Position numbers and translations under genes: made by a program
In this document: piece by piece, positions 489 to 5,024 of the stretch
How the letters are laid out: the number at the start of each line of letters is the position of its first letter
How positions within the stretch are numbered: position 1 is the stretch's first letter
The notes under the pieces: generated by a model
Database searches by the model: none
Told to the model about the DNA's origin: nothing
The model's input: only the letters and a program-made list of their open reading frames with translations
Origin: a virus
Lineage: Duplodnaviria > Heunggongvirae > Uroviricota > Caudoviricetes
DNA length: 7,552 nt
Reading direction: 5' to 3' (one strand)
Virus record (IMG/VR): IMGVR_UViG_2744054627_000013

Positions 489-520
489 ATTGGTGGAGCT
501 GGCGGGAGTTGAACCCGTGT
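489..520 (-). other. ssrA: Attachment-site core: partial copy of the 3' end of the tmRNA gene ssrA (T-arm, acceptor strand and CCA); no ssrA body in the window
   Basis: Reverse complement of 489-520 reads GGACaCGGGTTCAACTCCCGCCAGCTCCACCA, matching the remembered E. coli ssrA 3' terminus (GGACGCGGGTTCAACTCCCGCCAGCTCCACCA) with one mismatch. Sequence to the right (521-860) is AT-rich and not tmRNA-like. Confidence 0.7.
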
Positions 521-732
521 CCATAGTTATGTAATTCATTGAATTTAAATAGCCAAATATTGTTGATTTTACAAGCGGCTCTTTTGCGGAACTTTTTCTG
601 TCCTGTTACTGTCTTACTATTTATTTTAAAATAGTTTCATTTGGAATTAATGGTTTGTGGTTGCAGTTTCGGAGATAGATAGCATTTTTTGCTAAAAAAT
701 ATTTTTATAAAAAAATGTGTGTAAAAATGATG

Positions 733-755
733 TTATGCACAGATTTATGCACAGA
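733..755 (+). promoter_or_regulatory. Tandem direct repeat TTATGCACAGA x2 (12-bp period), each with a DnaA-box-like TTATNCACA core, in the cargo-operon upstream region
   Basis: 733-743 and 745-755 are identical 11-mers separated by one T. An imperfect palindrome TTGTCAACAATATTATTGACTC (804-825) lies 50 bp downstream, about 125 bp before the ATG at 949. Confidence 0.3.
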
Positions 756-948
756 GGCTTTGTGATAAACCAGATTGTTTTGGATAAGTTTGTTTTTTGT
801 GATTTGTCAACAATATTATTGACTCTTGTTACTAAAGTGAGTGTTTTCTAAGGTGGTCAGAAGTTGTCCCTTCATGTAATCTTATTAGCCATAAAGAACA
901 AAAAATAATTCAACATCATTACCAACTATTTGTAAGATAAGGTTTTTA

Positions 949-1764
949 ATGTTGCAGCCAGCAAAAAAAGCATCAGTTATTAGCGCGCGGCTAACTAAAT
1001 ACCTCAAAGATGGAGTGAGGATTGATGACTTTAGCTTTAGAAGGATGTTACGTGAGATTGAAGCACTTAGAGATCCTGTCTCTGAGGACTATCTTTTAGC
1101 GTTGGTCTATGGTGCACATGGCCAAGTGAATGAGGCGATAGGCTTCTTTGAGCGTTCCTTGCAGGTATGCCATAATGAGGTTGTTGCAAAGAATTTTCTT
1201 GTTTTCTTGTCAGATTACGGTACGTTGAAGAAAAGCTTTGAAACAAGCATTAAGCTTGCTGAAAGCTTCATATCCCCGTTTATTTATCTTCAAGCTTATG
1301 AAAACTCCCTCTTTATGGGGAAGATGGCGTTGGCGGAGAAGTATTTCCAGTCATACTCTAAATTGTTCGGAGATAAGGAGCCTGAAAAAATGGACAACAA
1401 TTTTGATGAAGTTGTTTCCCAGGTCGAATCCTTTAAGCAACGTGCCGATCTTTCTGGTTTAGAATATGAACTTATTTTCAATAATGTAGCCAATGTCATG
1501 GATTCTCAGAAGGTTCATCTTTCGGGAATGCGTTTTTATAATATTTCGGAAGAGAAAGTGAATGCGATTGTATTCATGACAAAGTCTTCTGATGCTGAAC
1601 AAATCGCTGATATGAATATTGAGCTTGCTTTTTCAATGGCTGAGCACGATTGTTTAGTCGGTAAAGATTTTGCTGTTTGGTTTGAATGTAAAGACACACA
1701 TATTGAGCAGAATGCTATCTCCGAATTAGGTCTGATTACCCGGAGGGTTGCACATGCCGGTTAA
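949..1764 (+). CDS. Hypothetical protein, 271 aa, first gene of the att-int cargo cassette; predicted largely helical, no domain recognised
   Basis: Long ORF with ATG at 949 preceded by AAGG about 6 nt upstream; ends with in-frame tandem stops TAA-TAG (1762-1767); sits in an AT-rich segment with its own upstream region and downstream terminator. Confidence 0.6.
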   Translation: MLQPAKKASVISARLTKYLKDGVRIDDFSFRRMLREIEALRDPVSEDYLLALVYGAHGQVNEAIGFFERSLQVCHNEVVAKNFLVFLSDYGTLKKSFETSIKLAESFISPFIYLQAYENSLFMGKMALAEKYFQSYSKLFGDKEPEKMDNNFDEVVSQVESFKQRADLSGLEYELIFNNVANVMDSQKVHLSGMRFYNISEEKVNAIVFMTKSSDAEQIADMNIELAFSMAEHDCLVGKDFAVWFECKDTHIEQNAISELGLITRRVAHAG

Positions 1765-2136
1765 TAGTCAAGATTTTCTCGGTTTTGCAAAGACTGTCAT
1801 CAACGTAATGACGAAATCGGCTATCGAAATGCTATAGCAAGATCCTACTATGGCGCTTACCATCATGTCTTGCCTTGTATGGTAAACGGGCCGAAAGACA
1901 GTCATCAGGGGCTAATCAATTATTTGCAGGGCGATGCTTCAAGAGGAAGTGAAGTATATGAAGCTAGATATCTAAAAGGGATTAGTTTTATCCTGAGTCA
2001 ACTTAAAGCTCAGAGGATTGTTGCAGACTATCGACTTGATCAATCGGTCACTTCTAAACAGTCTGAAGTTGCGATTCTAACAACTGAGAGGCTCTTTGCT
2101 AAGTGTACGGAAATGCTTAAATCGAGAGCCTCCTAA
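1754..2136 (+). CDS. Hypothetical protein, second gene of the cargo cassette, about 127 aa if one -1 frameshift between about 1768 and 1837 is corrected; contains an R-x6-HH motif (RSYYGAYHH)
   Basis: ATG at 1754 with strong SD GGAGGG 6 nt upstream, overlapping the last codons of the 271-aa gene. That frame stops at 1835-1837, but the frame carrying the annotated 88-aa ORF (1870-2136) is open back to 1768, consistent with a single-base deletion. The fusion is an inference. Confidence 0.45.
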
Positions 2137-2142
2137 TTGATA

Positions 2143-2166
2143 AAGCCACTTAAGTGGCTTTTTTTG
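2143..2166. terminator. Intrinsic terminator ending the cargo operon; the stem also contains the integrase stop codon on the opposite strand
   Basis: Perfect palindrome AAGCCACTTAAGTGGCTT (2143-2160) followed by TTTTTTT on the + strand, directly after the cargo stop codon at 2134-2136. Confidence 0.6.
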
Positions 2167-3318
2167 TGATATTGCTGGTCGTATTACCGTCATATTCCTT
2201 TAAATATGAACCATAATGACGAAATAACATTTCCGGCCCTTTATGCCCCATTTGAGCTGCAAGCCAAAACAGGTTTGCTCCCGGCTGATATGGCGGGTGG
2301 CGAATGTATGCCTAGTTTGATATGGATTTCTGTAACGAATACCTGCTTTTCGCAATGTTGGCACCCATGCTTTTTCCTGATTGCATCAGCACTTGCCCAA
2401 GGCTTATTGGTCTTTGGATCTTCAAAGACAGTAGTATCCTTCATGAATGTAAATGGCTTCTGATTTATCAGCGCAACATTGCCTCTTCTGTCAGTTCAAC
2501 TTTCCGAGTACCTGCTTTTGTCTTTGTCCCTTTGATAACACCGACAACACTTGCGCTCTGGACATGGGCAGTTTTTCCAACAAAGTCGATATCACGCCAT
2601 CGAAGGCACATAATTCAGAACTACGCAGGCCTGTATGTATAGCGAACCGGAACAGATTTTCCCATTGTTTGTTTCCGGCTGCTGCTAGTAATGCATCAAC
2701 TTCTGCTGGTGATAGCGGATCAACTACGTAGCTGCTTTCTGCTTCTGACTTATCACTTTGGTAGCGCGAAGCTGTTACTAACGATACGGGGTTAATTTGA
2801 AGTACCCCATCGGTCACGGCTTCATCAAGTGCTGACCGCAGGAAAGATAACTGGTTGCGAATTGTTTTTAAGGTCGTTTTCTGATTTTGAATCCACGCTT
2901 TCAGGGTTGCTGGTGTTAATTCACTTGCAGGGCAAATGTGAAGTGAGGCTAACGCACTACGGCATTTTTTATAGCCACCAATCGTAGAGGGTGAAAGTTT
3001 TCTTGTTTCGCAGATTTCAAGATATTCGTCCAGGTACATCTTTACCGTTTTGCCTGCAGCAGCATTACCAAAAATTTTCAAACGAGCAGAACGGGGAAAA
3101 TATTCTGCATAAATGAATGTTCCCCTTTCGATCTTATTATGGATTTCGCCGAGTGTACGCTCGGCGTATTTAATGTTCTTTGGTGTTACTTCCAGATTGG
3201 AAAGCGGCTCACGACATCTAACTCCTTTGTAGGTGAAAGTTATATTGATCGTTTCTCCCTGGCGGTGTTTCCTGATTGTTACGCCGCGCGGTAGTTTGAG
3301 CAGTTTTGTCTGGCCCAT
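2150..3318 (-). pseudogene. int: Tyrosine integrase (lambda/P22-type with N-terminal arm-binding domain), about 390 aa when intact; interrupted by about 4 single-base frameshifts in the C-terminal half as sequenced
   Basis: ATG at 3318; N-terminal 275 aa in one frame (MGQTKLLKLPRGVTIRKH...HTGLRSSELCA). Integrase-like sequence continues in shifted frames: WRDIDFVGKTAHVQSASVVGVIKGTKTKAGTRKVELTEEAM, then ...FEDPKTNKPWASADAIRKK, then KAWVPTLRKAGIRYRNPYQTRHTFAT, then LFWLAAQMGHKGPEMLFRHYGSYLKEY... to TAA at 2150-2152. Catalytic R, K, H-x-x-R, H and Y are all present after correction. One shift is at a T5 run (2371-2375). Confidence 0.8.
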
Positions 3319-3526: not shown

Positions 3527-4393
3527 TTAACGAATAGTGTCGTTACTTTGAAGTACAGCAAATGCCATTAATACTTCTAAAGTATATCTTCTATAAAATT
3601 TAACAAAACCAACATAGAAAACATAGACGAAGAAAAAGCTAAGCATTATTGAAAGTAAACTATAAAGATAATCACTATGAGTACATAATCGATAAATAAA
3701 GGTTGGAACTGATACCCAAAATGAAATTATAAAGATTAAACATATGTTTCTGCAAAAACCATATAATGCAACATAGTTTTGAATTTTTGTTTGATGTTGT
3801 TTTGAAAACTCATAAACATAATGATATGCCAATCTGAAGAGATCATCATCAAGTCCGTTTTTATCTTGTAATAATTGGCGATTTGTTATGAACTTTTTCT
3901 CATAACCTTCTTTGATCATTAACCATGTTGTATTAGCTAAATGAAATGGTAGAGATTGAGAATAACATAGTTTTTGTGTTATAAAATCCCATAGTATTAT
4001 TGGACATAATACGCATTTGATTATGCGATTCTTTATTTTTGTTTTTTTATCAGCGCTTCTCTCATCGCATGATGGGCTACAAATGCTTTCTGAGGTATCT
4101 ATCAATTTTTTAAATAGATATTTGGAAGGATATCCTAATTCTTTATTCATGTATTTTTCGATAAAAAATGCTGACGTGATAGAAATAAAATGTCCAGCTA
4201 TATAAGATATAATAACTATTGAAGCGTAGTTCAAAATGCCAAAGATTTGACTTTGACCTCTGAGCAATTCACTTAAGTCAATAACAATATCTAGATCGAA
4301 TGTCAAACCACAGAAATACATTAATAGGATAAAAAAACCACCTGGTATTAAATATCCAAGAAAGTCATAGAATGAGAATGGATTTTGATTCAT
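3527..4393 (-). CDS. Hypothetical integral membrane protein, about 288 aa with about 5 predicted transmembrane helices, in a strongly AT-rich moron
   Basis: Long minus-strand ORF; ATG at 4393 preceded by GGAGA about 6 nt upstream (the TTG at 4417 in the ORF track is a less likely start). Hydrophobic stretches such as FFILLMYFCGLTF, IFGILNYASIVIISYIAGHFISITSAFFI, LIFIISFWVSVPTFIY and LLSIMLSFFFVYVFYVGFV. Composition is much more AT-rich than the flanking genes. Confidence 0.6.
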   Translation of the reverse strand: MNQNPFSFYDFLGYLIPGGFFILLMYFCGLTFDLDIVIDLSELLRGQSQIFGILNYASIVIISYIAGHFISITSAFFIEKYMNKELGYPSKYLFKKLIDTSESICSPSCDERSADKKTKIKNRIIKCVLCPIILWDFITQKLCYSQSLPFHLANTTWLMIKEGYEKKFITNRQLLQDKNGLDDDLFRLAYHYVYEFSKQHQTKIQNYVALYGFCRNICLIFIISFWVSVPTFIYRLCTHSDYLYSLLSIMLSFFFVYVFYVGFVKFYRRYTLEVLMAFAVLQSNDTIR

Positions 4394-4501
4394 TGTTGCT
4401 CTCCAATAATTTTTCAATTTGTAATATAACCTATATCTATATGTTAATAAATTACTTATATGTTCTTTTATGGCAGAGTTTGAATTCGTACGTGCTGATT
4501 T

Positions 4502-5024
4502 TTACGACTCAGTTAACTCTTTAAAGCGTTCCATAAACATCCCATAGGTATGGCCTGGCGACAGTGGAATAACTTTGAACATCTCTGTTGCCGGGATACC
4601 TTCCAGTACGGGCCAGAAAGAGCCATCATCAAGCCCGAGATCGCGGCGTTCGGTTGCCAGCATGATGAGATCGGCATATTTCACGGGCGTACTCATAACC
4701 GGGGTAACCCGTATTTCTCACGGATTACGGCGTCTATTTTTCTTCCATCCGTTTATAGTCAGGAAGAAGGCGTTTCAGTGGAGCCGGGATGTCCTGGCAA
4801 TACGCTTCTGTTGCATCATGCATTAACGCTTCAAAAGCAAATTCCTGCGGTACCAGCTGGCTGCAAAGCACCGCATGTTGGGCGACGCTGTAGAAGTGTG
4901 AAAGATGGCCGGCAAAGCGACAGATATTTGAAAGGGAAACCGCGATATCGTTAATATCGATGTTGTCTTTATTTATCCTGTCATAATAAAAATGTTTCCC
5001 GGAAAAAGTTTTAATAAATGACAT
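4502..5024 (-). pseudogene. yfdR: HD-domain phosphohydrolase, YfdR-like (5'-deoxynucleotidase family); split by two single-base homopolymer deletions as sequenced
   Basis: N-terminal part (ORF ending 4734) carries the HD signature region (...RFAGHLSHFYSVAQHAVLCSQLV...HDATEAY...) and ends ...KRMEEK-stop at a T5 run (4737-4741). The C-terminal part (4696-4502, MSTPVKYADLIMLATERRDLGLDDGSFWP...) is in another frame, restored after a G4 run at 4701-4704. ATG at 5024 has GGAG 6 nt upstream; a GTG at 5036 is an alternative start. Gene name is from memory of the CPS-53 yfdPQR module. Confidence 0.65.

What the first reader, a model, noticed from the sequence alone, without database searches (positions are those of the whole stretch)
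949..2136. Self-contained two-gene cargo cassette between the att core and the integrase: candidate undescribed defence or toxin-antitoxin-like system
A 271-aa protein and a downstream roughly 127-aa protein sit in the cargo position between att and int, on the strand opposite to all phage genes. The cassette has its own AT-rich upstream region with operator-like repeats, and a strong terminator whose stem contains the integrase stop codon. The second gene has a strong SD (GGAGGG) inside the last codons of the first and an ATG at 1754 overlapping it by 11 nt, implying translational coupling. I recognise no domain in either protein; the second carries an R-x6-HH motif (RSYYGAYHH) that could hint at a HEPN-type RNase, but its near-N-terminal position is atypical. 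att-int junctions are known hotspots for anti-phage cargo.
Basis: partly seen in the sequence, partly recalled or inferred. Interest (0 to 1): 0.8.

Follow-up and report, generated by a model that had tools for sequence, protein, structure and literature searches.

The report
Prophage TPR–HEPN two-gene toxin-like cassette
This is a real, mobile two-gene module found in prophages, a plasmid and chromosomes, pairing an uncharacterised TPR protein with a small HEPN-fold (probable RNase) protein; it looks like a new variant of HEPN toxin-antitoxin/anti-phage systems, but in this window its second gene is broken by a one-base deletion.

Summary
The cassette is real. Gene A (949-1764, 271 aa) is intact. 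Gene B (ATG 1754, stop 2136) is not an open 127-aa frame in this window: one A is missing at 1789-1791 and the frame stops at 1835-1837. Close E. coli relatives carry an intact 127-aa B. The window has 17 single-base, homopolymer-type deletions, so assembly error is likely.

B is a HEPN-fold protein of the HEPN-T/UPF0332 type. Its motif is R88-x3-D92-Y93, not Rx4-6H. Ten polar or aromatic residues are invariant across 66 distinct sequences.

A is a TPR protein with an acidic C-terminal alpha/beta domain that has no known relative. A has no invariant residue.

A lies directly upstream of B in 91 of 92 loci from Enterobacterales, Aeromonas, Gilliamella and a betaproteobacterium, and also in a Klebsiella phage and an Acinetobacter plasmid (L093-L094). 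The start usually overlaps the stop. The two proteins co-diverge (r=0.92).

The module carries its own conserved leader and terminator and sits in varied accessory sites. A convergent integrase follows in 26 of 88 loci.

Best reading (about 0.5): B is an RNase toxin or abortive-infection effector, and A, standing where the MNT antitoxin normally is, neutralises or senses. No described system matched. Function is untested.

The parts
865..948 (+). Conserved non-coding leader/promoter region that travels with the cassette. Conserved blocks are GGTGG...TTCATGTAATCTTA...TAAC..TGT.AGATAAGG, about 6 nt before the ATG.
   Evidence: A MAFFT alignment of the 260 nt upstream of gene A shows conserved blocks in the last ~85 nt in the window, L002 (Mixta chromosome, no integrase), L020 and L053. 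No sigma-70 consensus site was found on the + strand here, so the promoter is not located.
949..1764 (+). Gene A, 271 aa. It has TPR-like helical hairpins (~43-140), two helices (152-187) and a beta-beta-alpha-beta domain (191-247) with a conserved acidic patch.
1742..1747 (+). Shine-Dalgarno GGAGGG for gene B, inside the 3' end of gene A
   Evidence: Sequence. Purine-rich SD-like sequence lies upstream of the B start in nearly all of 92 pairs.
1754..2136 (+). Gene B, a HEPN-T/UPF0332-type HEPN protein. It is 127 aa when intact. Here it is frameshifted, with a premature TAG at 1835-1837.
   Evidence: AF2 pLDDT 93.8. Foldseek top hit 2hsb, TM 0.67. Profile to 9xbd E=1e-5. 34 of 49 family members touch PF05168. 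Invariant E21, R25, R30, Y32, Y33, H37, H51, R88, D92, Y93.
1789..1791 (+). A3 run where relatives have A4; the one-base deletion that breaks gene B
   Evidence: window 1789 versus L001 8271. It is one of 17 single-base deletions, nearly all in homopolymer runs, relative to L001.
2142..2161 (+). Intrinsic-terminator-like hairpin (8-bp stem, TTAA loop, T-run) closing the cassette. The convergent integrase stop codon (2150-2152) lies in its loop.
   Evidence: Homologous or analogous hairpins directly follow B in L002, L020, L053, L004 and L007, but not in the Acinetobacter plasmid L093.
494..525 (-). Context: att core, a 32-nt copy of the 3' end of ssrA (tmRNA)
   Evidence: Rfam tmRNA partial match at 491-538 (-), E=1.7e-6, below gathering score. 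In island-free strains the flanking autotransporter gene abuts ssrA.
733..755 (.). Context: tandem 11-mers TTATGCACAGA x2. They are probably integrase arm-type sites of attP rather than a cassette operator.
   Evidence: They are conserved in L020 and L053 (same integrase family) but not in L002, which has no integrase. The integrase has an Arm-DNA-bind_2 domain. The role is inferred.
2150..3318 (-). Context: tyrosine integrase (390 aa in relatives), broken here by four single-base deletions
   Evidence: deletions at 2280, 2371, 2474, 2605. Pfam Arm-DNA-bind_2 plus Phage_integrase on the L001 copy.

Best explanation
The cassette is a mobile, self-contained two-gene HEPN module of the toxin-antitoxin / abortive-infection kind, carried as prophage accessory cargo. 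B is a small HEPN-T (UPF0332-like) domain protein and is most likely the enzymatic effector, an RNase. Its proposed active site is built from R88/D92/Y93 on helix 4 together with histidines elsewhere in the fold (H37, H51). A is a non-enzymatic TPR protein with an acidic C-terminal domain. It occupies the upstream position that the MNT nucleotidyltransferase antitoxin holds in classical MNT-HEPN systems. It is made first and, through stop/start overlap, in fixed ratio with B.

A is proposed to bind and mask B. It would release or activate B when its TPR surface meets a trigger (for example a phage protein) or when A is lost, arresting translation in the infected cell.

Shown: the HEPN fold of B, the TPR fold of A, obligate adjacency, coupling geometry, co-divergence, mobility, and the cassette's own leader and terminator.

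Inferred: RNase activity, toxicity, neutralisation by A, any trigger, and any anti-phage effect.

In this window B is frameshifted, most likely through sequencing or assembly error.
For: B is HEPN:
- AF2 model pLDDT 93.8, helical bundle.
- Best Foldseek PDB hits are 2hsb (TM 0.67, prob 1.0), 2q00, sacsin HEPN, 1ufb, 1o3u and HepT.
- The family profile aligns colinearly over most of the domain (profile positions 27-121 of 127) to 9xbd 'HEPN domain-containing protein' at E=1e-5, and to 2hsb at E=0.017.
- 34 of 49 members touch Pfam PF05168.
- Some sources name relatives UPF0332/HEPN.

B looks enzymatic: E21, R25, R30, Y32, Y33, H37, H51, R88, D92 and Y93 are 100% invariant across 66 distinct sequences, some pairs of which share only 20-35% identity. 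The HEPN census states that HEPN-T proteins with D in place of H have a conserved H elsewhere that could contribute to activity. It also states that the upstream MNT is the antitoxin of downstream HEPN toxins (PMC3710099).

A is a non-enzymatic binder:
- TPR fold.
- No invariant residue across 66 sequences, and a conserved acidic patch in the C-terminal domain.

Obligate pair:
- A lies immediately upstream of B on the same strand in 91 of 92 loci.
- The B start overlaps the A stop in 82 of 92 pairs, and the other gaps are 16 nt or less except one disrupted copy.
- Pairwise identities of A and B correlate at r=0.92. A diverges faster than B in 98% of comparisons.

Mobility typical of TA/defence morons:
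- A convergent integrase follows in 26 of 88 loci, from two unrelated integrase families. Elsewhere the neighbours are methylases, UmuC, endolysins or tail genes.
- Chromosomal sites in Mixta and Gilliamella.
- A 10-kb MOBQ Acinetobacter plasmid.
- A Klebsiella phage.
- The cassette keeps its own leader and terminator across contexts.
Against: - There is no experimental evidence of toxicity, RNase activity or phage defence for any member.
- B lacks the canonical Rx4-6H motif, and I found no report showing that this HEPN-T subtype is an active nuclease.
- Neither protein matches a PADLOC v2 defence model, apart from a weak HEPN_IX hit at E=1.3e-3.
- A has no DNA-binding or antitoxin domain. The VapB15 hit at E=0.043 is noise.
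- A-B physical interaction was not modelled because no multimer tool was available.
- Enrichment next to known defence systems was not measured.
- Foldseek E-values for B are weak (best 0.029). The fold call rests on TM score and probability plus the sequence-profile hits.
- The copy in this window is disrupted.
Confidence: 0.5

Rival explanations
1. It is a plain addiction (post-segregational killing) toxin-antitoxin module that stabilises the prophage, plasmid or island carrying it, with no dedicated anti-phage role. B is the toxin and A is a labile antitoxin.
For: It has the same anatomy as the best explanation. It occurs on a small mobilizable plasmid and at prophage ends.
Against: A is large (271 aa) and carries a TPR array, which is unusual for a simple labile antitoxin and more typical of sensors or adaptors. 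No DNA-binding autoregulatory domain was detected in A. This reading is not mutually exclusive with defence.
Confidence: 0.2
2. It is a non-toxic accessory pair. B is a catalytically inactive HEPN acting as a nucleotide- or RNA-binding subunit, and A is its adaptor. The pair would serve a phage-beneficial or regulatory role, such as counter-defence, signal sequestration or lysogeny control.
For: The canonical Rx4-6H motif is absent. The HEPN census notes that HEPN domains lacking catalytic residues act as binding domains (PMC3710099). The cassette sits among phage morons such as methylases, which often serve anti-restriction roles.
Against: Ten invariant polar or aromatic residues in a 127-aa protein fit a catalytic or tight ligand site better than a passive scaffold. 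The conserved upstream-partner arrangement and stop/start overlap mirror TA logic.
Confidence: 0.15
3. The roles are reversed. A is the effector, acting through its unknown C-terminal alpha/beta domain, and B is the regulator or antitoxin.
For: A's C-terminal domain (~150-250) has no match in PDB or Pfam, so its activity cannot be excluded. Early predictions for MNT-HEPN systems also had HEPN as the antitoxin (PMC3710099).
Against: A has no invariant residue and no conserved catalytic-type constellation, whereas B has many. The upstream gene is usually the antitoxin, and HEPN was later shown to be the toxin in MNT-HEPN systems (PMC3710099).
Confidence: 0.07
4. In this particular genome the cassette and its prophage are decaying pseudogenes. 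The frameshifts in B, the integrase and the yfdR-like gene would then be real.
For: There are 17 single-base deletions relative to L001, and they disrupt B, int (x4) and the yfdR-like gene.
Against: All 17 are one-base losses and nearly all fall in homopolymer runs, which is the signature of long-read or pyrosequencing assembly error. Substitutions are few and clustered at 4544-4574. All 25 listed E. coli relatives span two more bases than the query over 520-2200, which matches the two window deletions at 793 and 1789.
Confidence: 0.15

Closest known systems
[quoted passage not shown]
   Same: It is a two-gene operon with the partner upstream and a small HEPN protein downstream. The genes are tightly coupled and the module is mobile. 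A conserved Tyr lies next to the helix-4 Arg motif (Y93 here). In HepT the equivalent Tyr is the AMPylation site (PMC13000451; PMC3710099).
   Different: The upstream gene is not a nucleotidyltransferase. It is a 271-aa TPR protein with an unknown acidic domain, no NTase match and no invariant acidic pair. B has R-x3-D-Y instead of R-phi-x3-H. Neutralisation by AMPylation is therefore unlikely.
HEPN-T / PF05168 / UPF0332 HEPN proteins (PDB 2hsb AF0298, 1o3u TM0613, 9xbd)
   Same: These are the best fold and profile matches. They share the 'sRAYYa.f(H/Y)' helix-2 element, the loop His ('SH') and the 'R..(s)DY' helix-4 element.
   Different: Those proteins are typically paired with or fused to MNT (PMC3710099). 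The window's B sequence scores below the reporting limit on the Pfam and NCBIfam models on its own. This clade is strictly paired with the TPR protein.
RnlA-RnlB / LsoA-LsoB HEPN toxin-antitoxin anti-phage systems of E. coli
   Same: They are HEPN RNase toxins neutralised by a non-enzymatic protein antitoxin. They are carried on a prophage or plasmid and act as abortive-infection systems (PMC8266594, abstract; prophage/plasmid carriage and the abortive-infection mode are from general knowledge).
   Different: From general knowledge, RnlA is a large multidomain protein with a canonical HEPN motif, the toxin gene precedes the antitoxin, and RnlB is small and unrelated to TPR. No sequence comparison with RnlA or RnlB was run here; no such family surfaced in the Pfam, NCBIfam or PADLOC scans of A and B.
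DefensePredictor DS-28 (E. coli two-gene HEPN system)
   Same: It is an E. coli two-gene system with a small HEPN protein and a ~250-aa partner of unknown function, and it was experimentally validated as anti-phage (PMC13092281).
   Different: It is unrelated in sequence. There were no significant blastp or profile hits for either protein. In DS-28 the HEPN gene comes first and carries a canonical RNSVAH motif.

Membership tests
HEPN superfamily (protein B) | Up-and-down helical-bundle HEPN fold | tested here: met
   AF2 pLDDT 93.8 with five helices. Foldseek top hit 2hsb at TM 0.67 and prob 1.0, followed by other HEPN structures. Profile to 9xbd E=1e-5 and 2hsb E=0.017. 34 of 49 family members hit PF05168 at E<=0.1, best 2e-5.
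HEPN superfamily (protein B) | Canonical Rx4-6H catalytic motif at the helix-4 position | tested here: not met
   The homologous position reads R88-I-V-A-D92-Y93, with Tyr where His is expected. It aligns to RNRSDY of 9xbd.
HEPN-T (PF05168-type) subgroup | D replaces the motif His, with a conserved His elsewhere (Anantharaman et al. 2013, Table 1) | tested here: met
   D92, H37 and H51 are 100% invariant across 66 distinct sequences. Subgroup description from PMC3710099.
HEPN-T (PF05168-type) subgroup | The protein itself passes the curated Pfam HEPN model | tested here: not met
   The window/L001 B sequence gives no Pfam or NCBIfam hit, even at E<=10. Only relatives and the family profile connect it to HEPN.
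Type VII HepT/MntA (MNT-HEPN) TA system | Upstream minimal nucleotidyltransferase antitoxin | tested here: not met
Type VII HepT/MntA (MNT-HEPN) TA system | Conserved Tyr adjacent to the Arg motif that accepts AMP | tested here: inconclusive
   Y93 is invariant and adjacent to R88/D92. Whether it is modified cannot be tested here, and no NTase is encoded in the cassette.
Type II-like toxin-antitoxin module | Two small adjacent co-directional genes, partner upstream, translationally coupled, mobile | tested here: met
   91 of 92 loci are adjacent. 82 of 92 have start/stop overlap. Contexts are varied.
Type II-like toxin-antitoxin module | Toxin arrests growth; antitoxin binds and neutralises it | not testable with these tools
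   This requires expression and rescue experiments or complex modelling.
Known anti-phage defence systems (PADLOC-DB v2.0.0) | Significant match of the component proteins to a system model | tested here: not met
   A has no hit. B has only HEPN_IX at E=1.3e-3 over residues 74-113 and a spurious oMTase hit.
TPR proteins (protein A) | Tandem helix-turn-helix TPR hairpins | tested here: met
DefensePredictor DS-28 | Sequence homology of both components | tested here: not met
   blastp E>=2 and profile E>=0.1 for all four comparisons.

The most novel reading that the evidence does not exclude
The TPR protein is a direct sensor of a phage protein, and it holds a HEPN-T RNase inactive through its acidic C-terminal domain. 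On infection it releases B, whose active site combines the helix-4 R-x3-D-Y element with histidines from helix 2 and the following loop. This would define a new family of prophage-, plasmid- and chromosome-borne abortive-infection systems. It would also be the first demonstration that 'D-for-H' HEPN-T/UPF0332 proteins are active nucleases that can be regulated without an MNT nucleotidyltransferase.
Probability: 0.3. Interest if true: 0.7.

Novelty: new variant of a known kind. Interest (0 to 1): 0.55.

Why it matters
HEPN-T/UPF0332 proteins are widespread but functionally obscure, and they have been viewed almost entirely through their MNT partners. This clade has swapped the enzyme partner for a TPR protein while keeping an invariant polar core, including the Tyr that MNTs modify in related systems. 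Testing it could show whether non-canonical HEPNs are real nucleases and how they are restrained without AMPylation. It could also add a compact two-gene system (about 1.3 kb) to the list of prophage-encoded immunity or addiction modules in Enterobacterales, Aeromonas and Acinetobacter. The intact version is present in 44 of 5426 complete E. coli genomes, so it is easy to clone and test.

Tried and rejected
- Single-sequence Pfam and NCBIfam scans of B gave nothing. Single-sequence phmmer of B against PDB also gave nothing. Only profiles connect B to HEPN.
- The top PDB profile hits to polyubiquitin are an artefact. A 25-residue 'L.D.R.LSDY' coincidence is summed over ubiquitin repeats, each at about 3.8 bits.
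- The word-indexed homologue search recovers few A relatives, even with a profile. The exhaustive HMMER search was needed.
- The search for related loci with the 66-sequence A alignment failed because no stretch was conserved enough.
- The AFDB50 fold library was unavailable. BFVD gave only two unannotated phage look-alikes.
- DS-28 from DefensePredictor was considered as the same system and rejected.
- The NCBIfam VapB15 hit on A residues 8-42 (E=0.043, 14 bits against a cut-off of 80) was judged noise.
- The Rfam fstAT hit at 830-914 (E=0.78) was judged chance.
- The sigma-70 scan found no + strand promoter between 480 and 948.
- I considered A's C-terminal domain as a degenerate MNT. The predicted order of secondary-structure elements (alpha-alpha-beta-beta-alpha-beta) and the lack of conserved acidic motifs do not fit. 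A domain-only fold search could not be run.

Full report
**1. What is in the window**

The window is E. coli chromosome at the end of a lambdoid prophage.
- An autotransporter C-terminus (5-307, +) is followed by a 32-nt copy of the 3' end of ssrA on the minus strand (494-525). The tmRNA model matches 491-538 at E=1.7e-6. In island-free strains the autotransporter abuts ssrA.
- Next comes a region of about 420 nt at ~30% GC, then the two-gene cassette on the + strand.
- After the cassette lie a convergent integrase, an xis/alpA-like ORF, a low-GC membrane-protein ORF and yfdPQR-like genes.

Gene A (949-1764) is intact. However, the frame runs into TAG at 1835-1837. The rest of the protein, including RSYYGAYHH, is in another frame.

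Comparison with E. coli SFE8 (L001) shows the window lacks one A in the run at 1789-1791.
- It also lacks 16 other single bases, nearly all in homopolymer runs. Four of these fall in the integrase and two in the yfdR-like gene.
- L001 has an intact 127-aa B, annotated as a hypothetical protein.
- All 25 listed E. coli matches carry two extra bases over 520-2200.
- I read the frameshift as probable assembly error. A real pseudogene cannot be excluded.
- The cassette occurs in 44 of 5426 complete E. coli genomes.

**2. Protein B is a HEPN protein of the HEPN-T/UPF0332 kind**
- On its own B matches no Pfam or NCBIfam model and only weakly PADLOC HEPN_IX.
- Its relatives (50 clusters) are occasionally named UPF0332 or HEPN.
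- 34 of 49 family members touch PF05168.
- The family profile aligns colinearly over most of the domain (profile positions 27-121) to PDB 9xbd 'HEPN domain-containing protein' (E=1e-5), and it also matches 2hsb.
- The AF2 model (pLDDT 93.8) is a helical bundle. Its best PDB matches are HEPN structures: 2hsb at TM 0.67, 2q00, sacsin, 1ufb, 1o3u and HepT.
- In the alignment, R30-x-Y-Y-x2-Y-H37 pairs with SRAYYAMFY, H51 pairs with the loop 'SH', and R88-x3-D92-Y93 pairs with RNRSDY.
That position carries R-x3-D-Y.
- The HEPN census lists exactly this situation for HEPN-T: D in place of H, with a conserved H elsewhere (PMC3710099).
- Across 66 distinct sequences, some pairs of which share only 20-35% identity, E21, R25, R30, Y32, Y33, H37, H51, L81, R88, D92 and Y93 are invariant. 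That argues for a catalytic or tight ligand-binding site.

**3. Protein A is a TPR protein with an unknown acidic C-terminal domain**
- AF2 (pLDDT 81.6) gives helical hairpins at ~43-140, two helices at 152-187 and a beta-beta-alpha-beta unit at 191-247.
- An exhaustive HMMER search finds about 100 full-length standalone clusters of 245-290 aa, plus unrelated long TPR proteins.
- A 66-member profile matches only TPR/PPR repeats in PDB and Pfam, over residues 50-147.
- BFVD gives two unannotated phage look-alikes.
- No residue is invariant. An acidic patch in the C-terminal domain is conserved by class.

**4. The two genes are an obligate, coupled, co-evolving and mobile unit**
- I examined 92 loci: 1 annotated E. 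coli genome, 11 species genomes and 80 viral contigs. An A-family gene lies immediately upstream of B on the same strand in 91 of them. The one exception is cut by a contig end.
- The loci span Enterobacterales, Aeromonas, Gilliamella and a betaproteobacterial MAG.
- Two further records carry the same adjacent pair. In a 10-kb MOBQ Acinetobacter plasmid the partner is annotated 'tetratricopeptide repeat protein'. In a Klebsiella phage B is intact but mis-annotated as two small ORFs.
- The B start overlaps the A stop in 82 of 92 pairs, typically by 11, 10, 4 or 1 nt, with SD-like purines upstream.
- Pairwise identities of A and B correlate at r=0.92. A diverges faster in 98% of comparisons, with mean identity 29% against 44%.
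- The flanks vary. A convergent integrase follows in 26 of 88 loci, from two unrelated integrase families. Elsewhere the neighbours are DNA methylases, UmuC, endolysins, tail genes, flgN or an MFS transporter.
- About 85 nt upstream of A are conserved even in the Mixta chromosomal copy.
- A terminator-like hairpin follows B in five other loci examined, though not in the Acinetobacter plasmid.
- The tandem 11-mers at 733-755 are conserved only with the same integrase family. They are better explained as Int arm-type sites (inference).

**5. Mechanism**

The anatomy matches MNT-HEPN toxin-antitoxin logic, with partner upstream and HEPN downstream (PMC3710099). The difference is that a non-enzymatic TPR protein replaces the nucleotidyltransferase.
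- I propose that B is an RNase effector.
- I propose that A is its stoichiometrically co-translated inhibitor and/or sensor, with the acidic domain masking B's basic face and the TPR array available for a trigger.
- Fold, pairing, coupling and mobility are shown. Activity, toxicity, neutralisation and defence are inferred.
- Rivals are pure addiction, a non-toxic binding pair, reversed roles, and a decayed copy in this genome.

**6. Comparison with the known, and novelty**
- It is not a member of HepT/MntA, because there is no MNT and no R-phi-x3-H motif.
- It matches no PADLOC v2 system.
- It is unrelated to DefensePredictor DS-28.
- It is not described in the hotspot, embedded-system or NetFlax papers checked.
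- I rate it a new variant of a known kind: a HEPN two-gene toxin/defence module with a novel partner. Interest is moderate, because it is well supported as a unit, easy to test, and functionally unproven.

Noticed in passing
window 793, 1789, 2280, 2371, 2474, 2605, 4701, 4737, 5099, 6515, 6547, 6870, 7074, 7523, 7537 and others: There are 17 single-base deletions relative to E. coli SFE8, nearly all in homopolymer runs. They frameshift gene B, the integrase (x4) and the yfdR-like gene. The pattern is typical of long-read or pyrosequencing assembly error, so any ORF call in this window should be checked against relatives.
   Followed up: partly
window 3527-4417 (-): A 296-aa ORF with several hydrophobic stretches lies in a very low-GC segment (0.27-0.31), between the xis/alpA-like gene and the yfdR-like gene. 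It is annotated hypothetical in L001 (WP_001075212.1). It is another possible moron or cargo gene.
   Followed up: no
window 733-755: The tandem 11-mers TTATGCACAGA (spacing 12) lie about 220 nt from the att core. They are conserved in prophages with the same integrase family (L020, L053) but not in the integrase-less Mixta copy. They are probably Int arm-type binding sites.
   Followed up: partly
window 556-566 and 807-817: A perfect 11-nt inverted repeat, AATATTGTTGA / TCAACAATATT, sits 240 nt apart and brackets the AT-rich intergenic region between the att core and the cassette.
   Followed up: no
window 4544-4574: Seven substitutions relative to L001 cluster within 31 nt inside the yfdR-like gene, whereas the rest of the 7-kb alignment has only one substitution. 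This may be a local recombination patch or a mis-assembly.
   Followed up: no
L001 1582-6806: In E. coli SFE8 a second island is inserted in tandem at the same ssrA-derived att. It carries its own integrase-domain gene and a pair annotated 'ATP-binding protein' plus 'response regulator receiver domain'. This resembles the HATPase+REC candidates named in a DefensePredictor supplementary figure legend.
   Followed up: no
L091 171-1368 and 4222-5405: One viral contig carries two divergent copies of the A-B pair about 3 kb apart.
   Followed up: no
L094 4252-4647 (Klebsiella phage ST405-OXA48phi1.3, MK416008.1): An intact 131-aa B homologue (motif RNEADY) overlaps the A homologue's stop. In GenBank it is annotated as two small hypothetical ORFs (19128-19259 and 19256-19471).
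   Followed up: yes
L052 4176-5351: This is one viral-contig copy in which B appears disrupted. Only a 62-aa fragment matches, 204 nt after A. It is a possible example of real decay of the effector gene.
   Followed up: no
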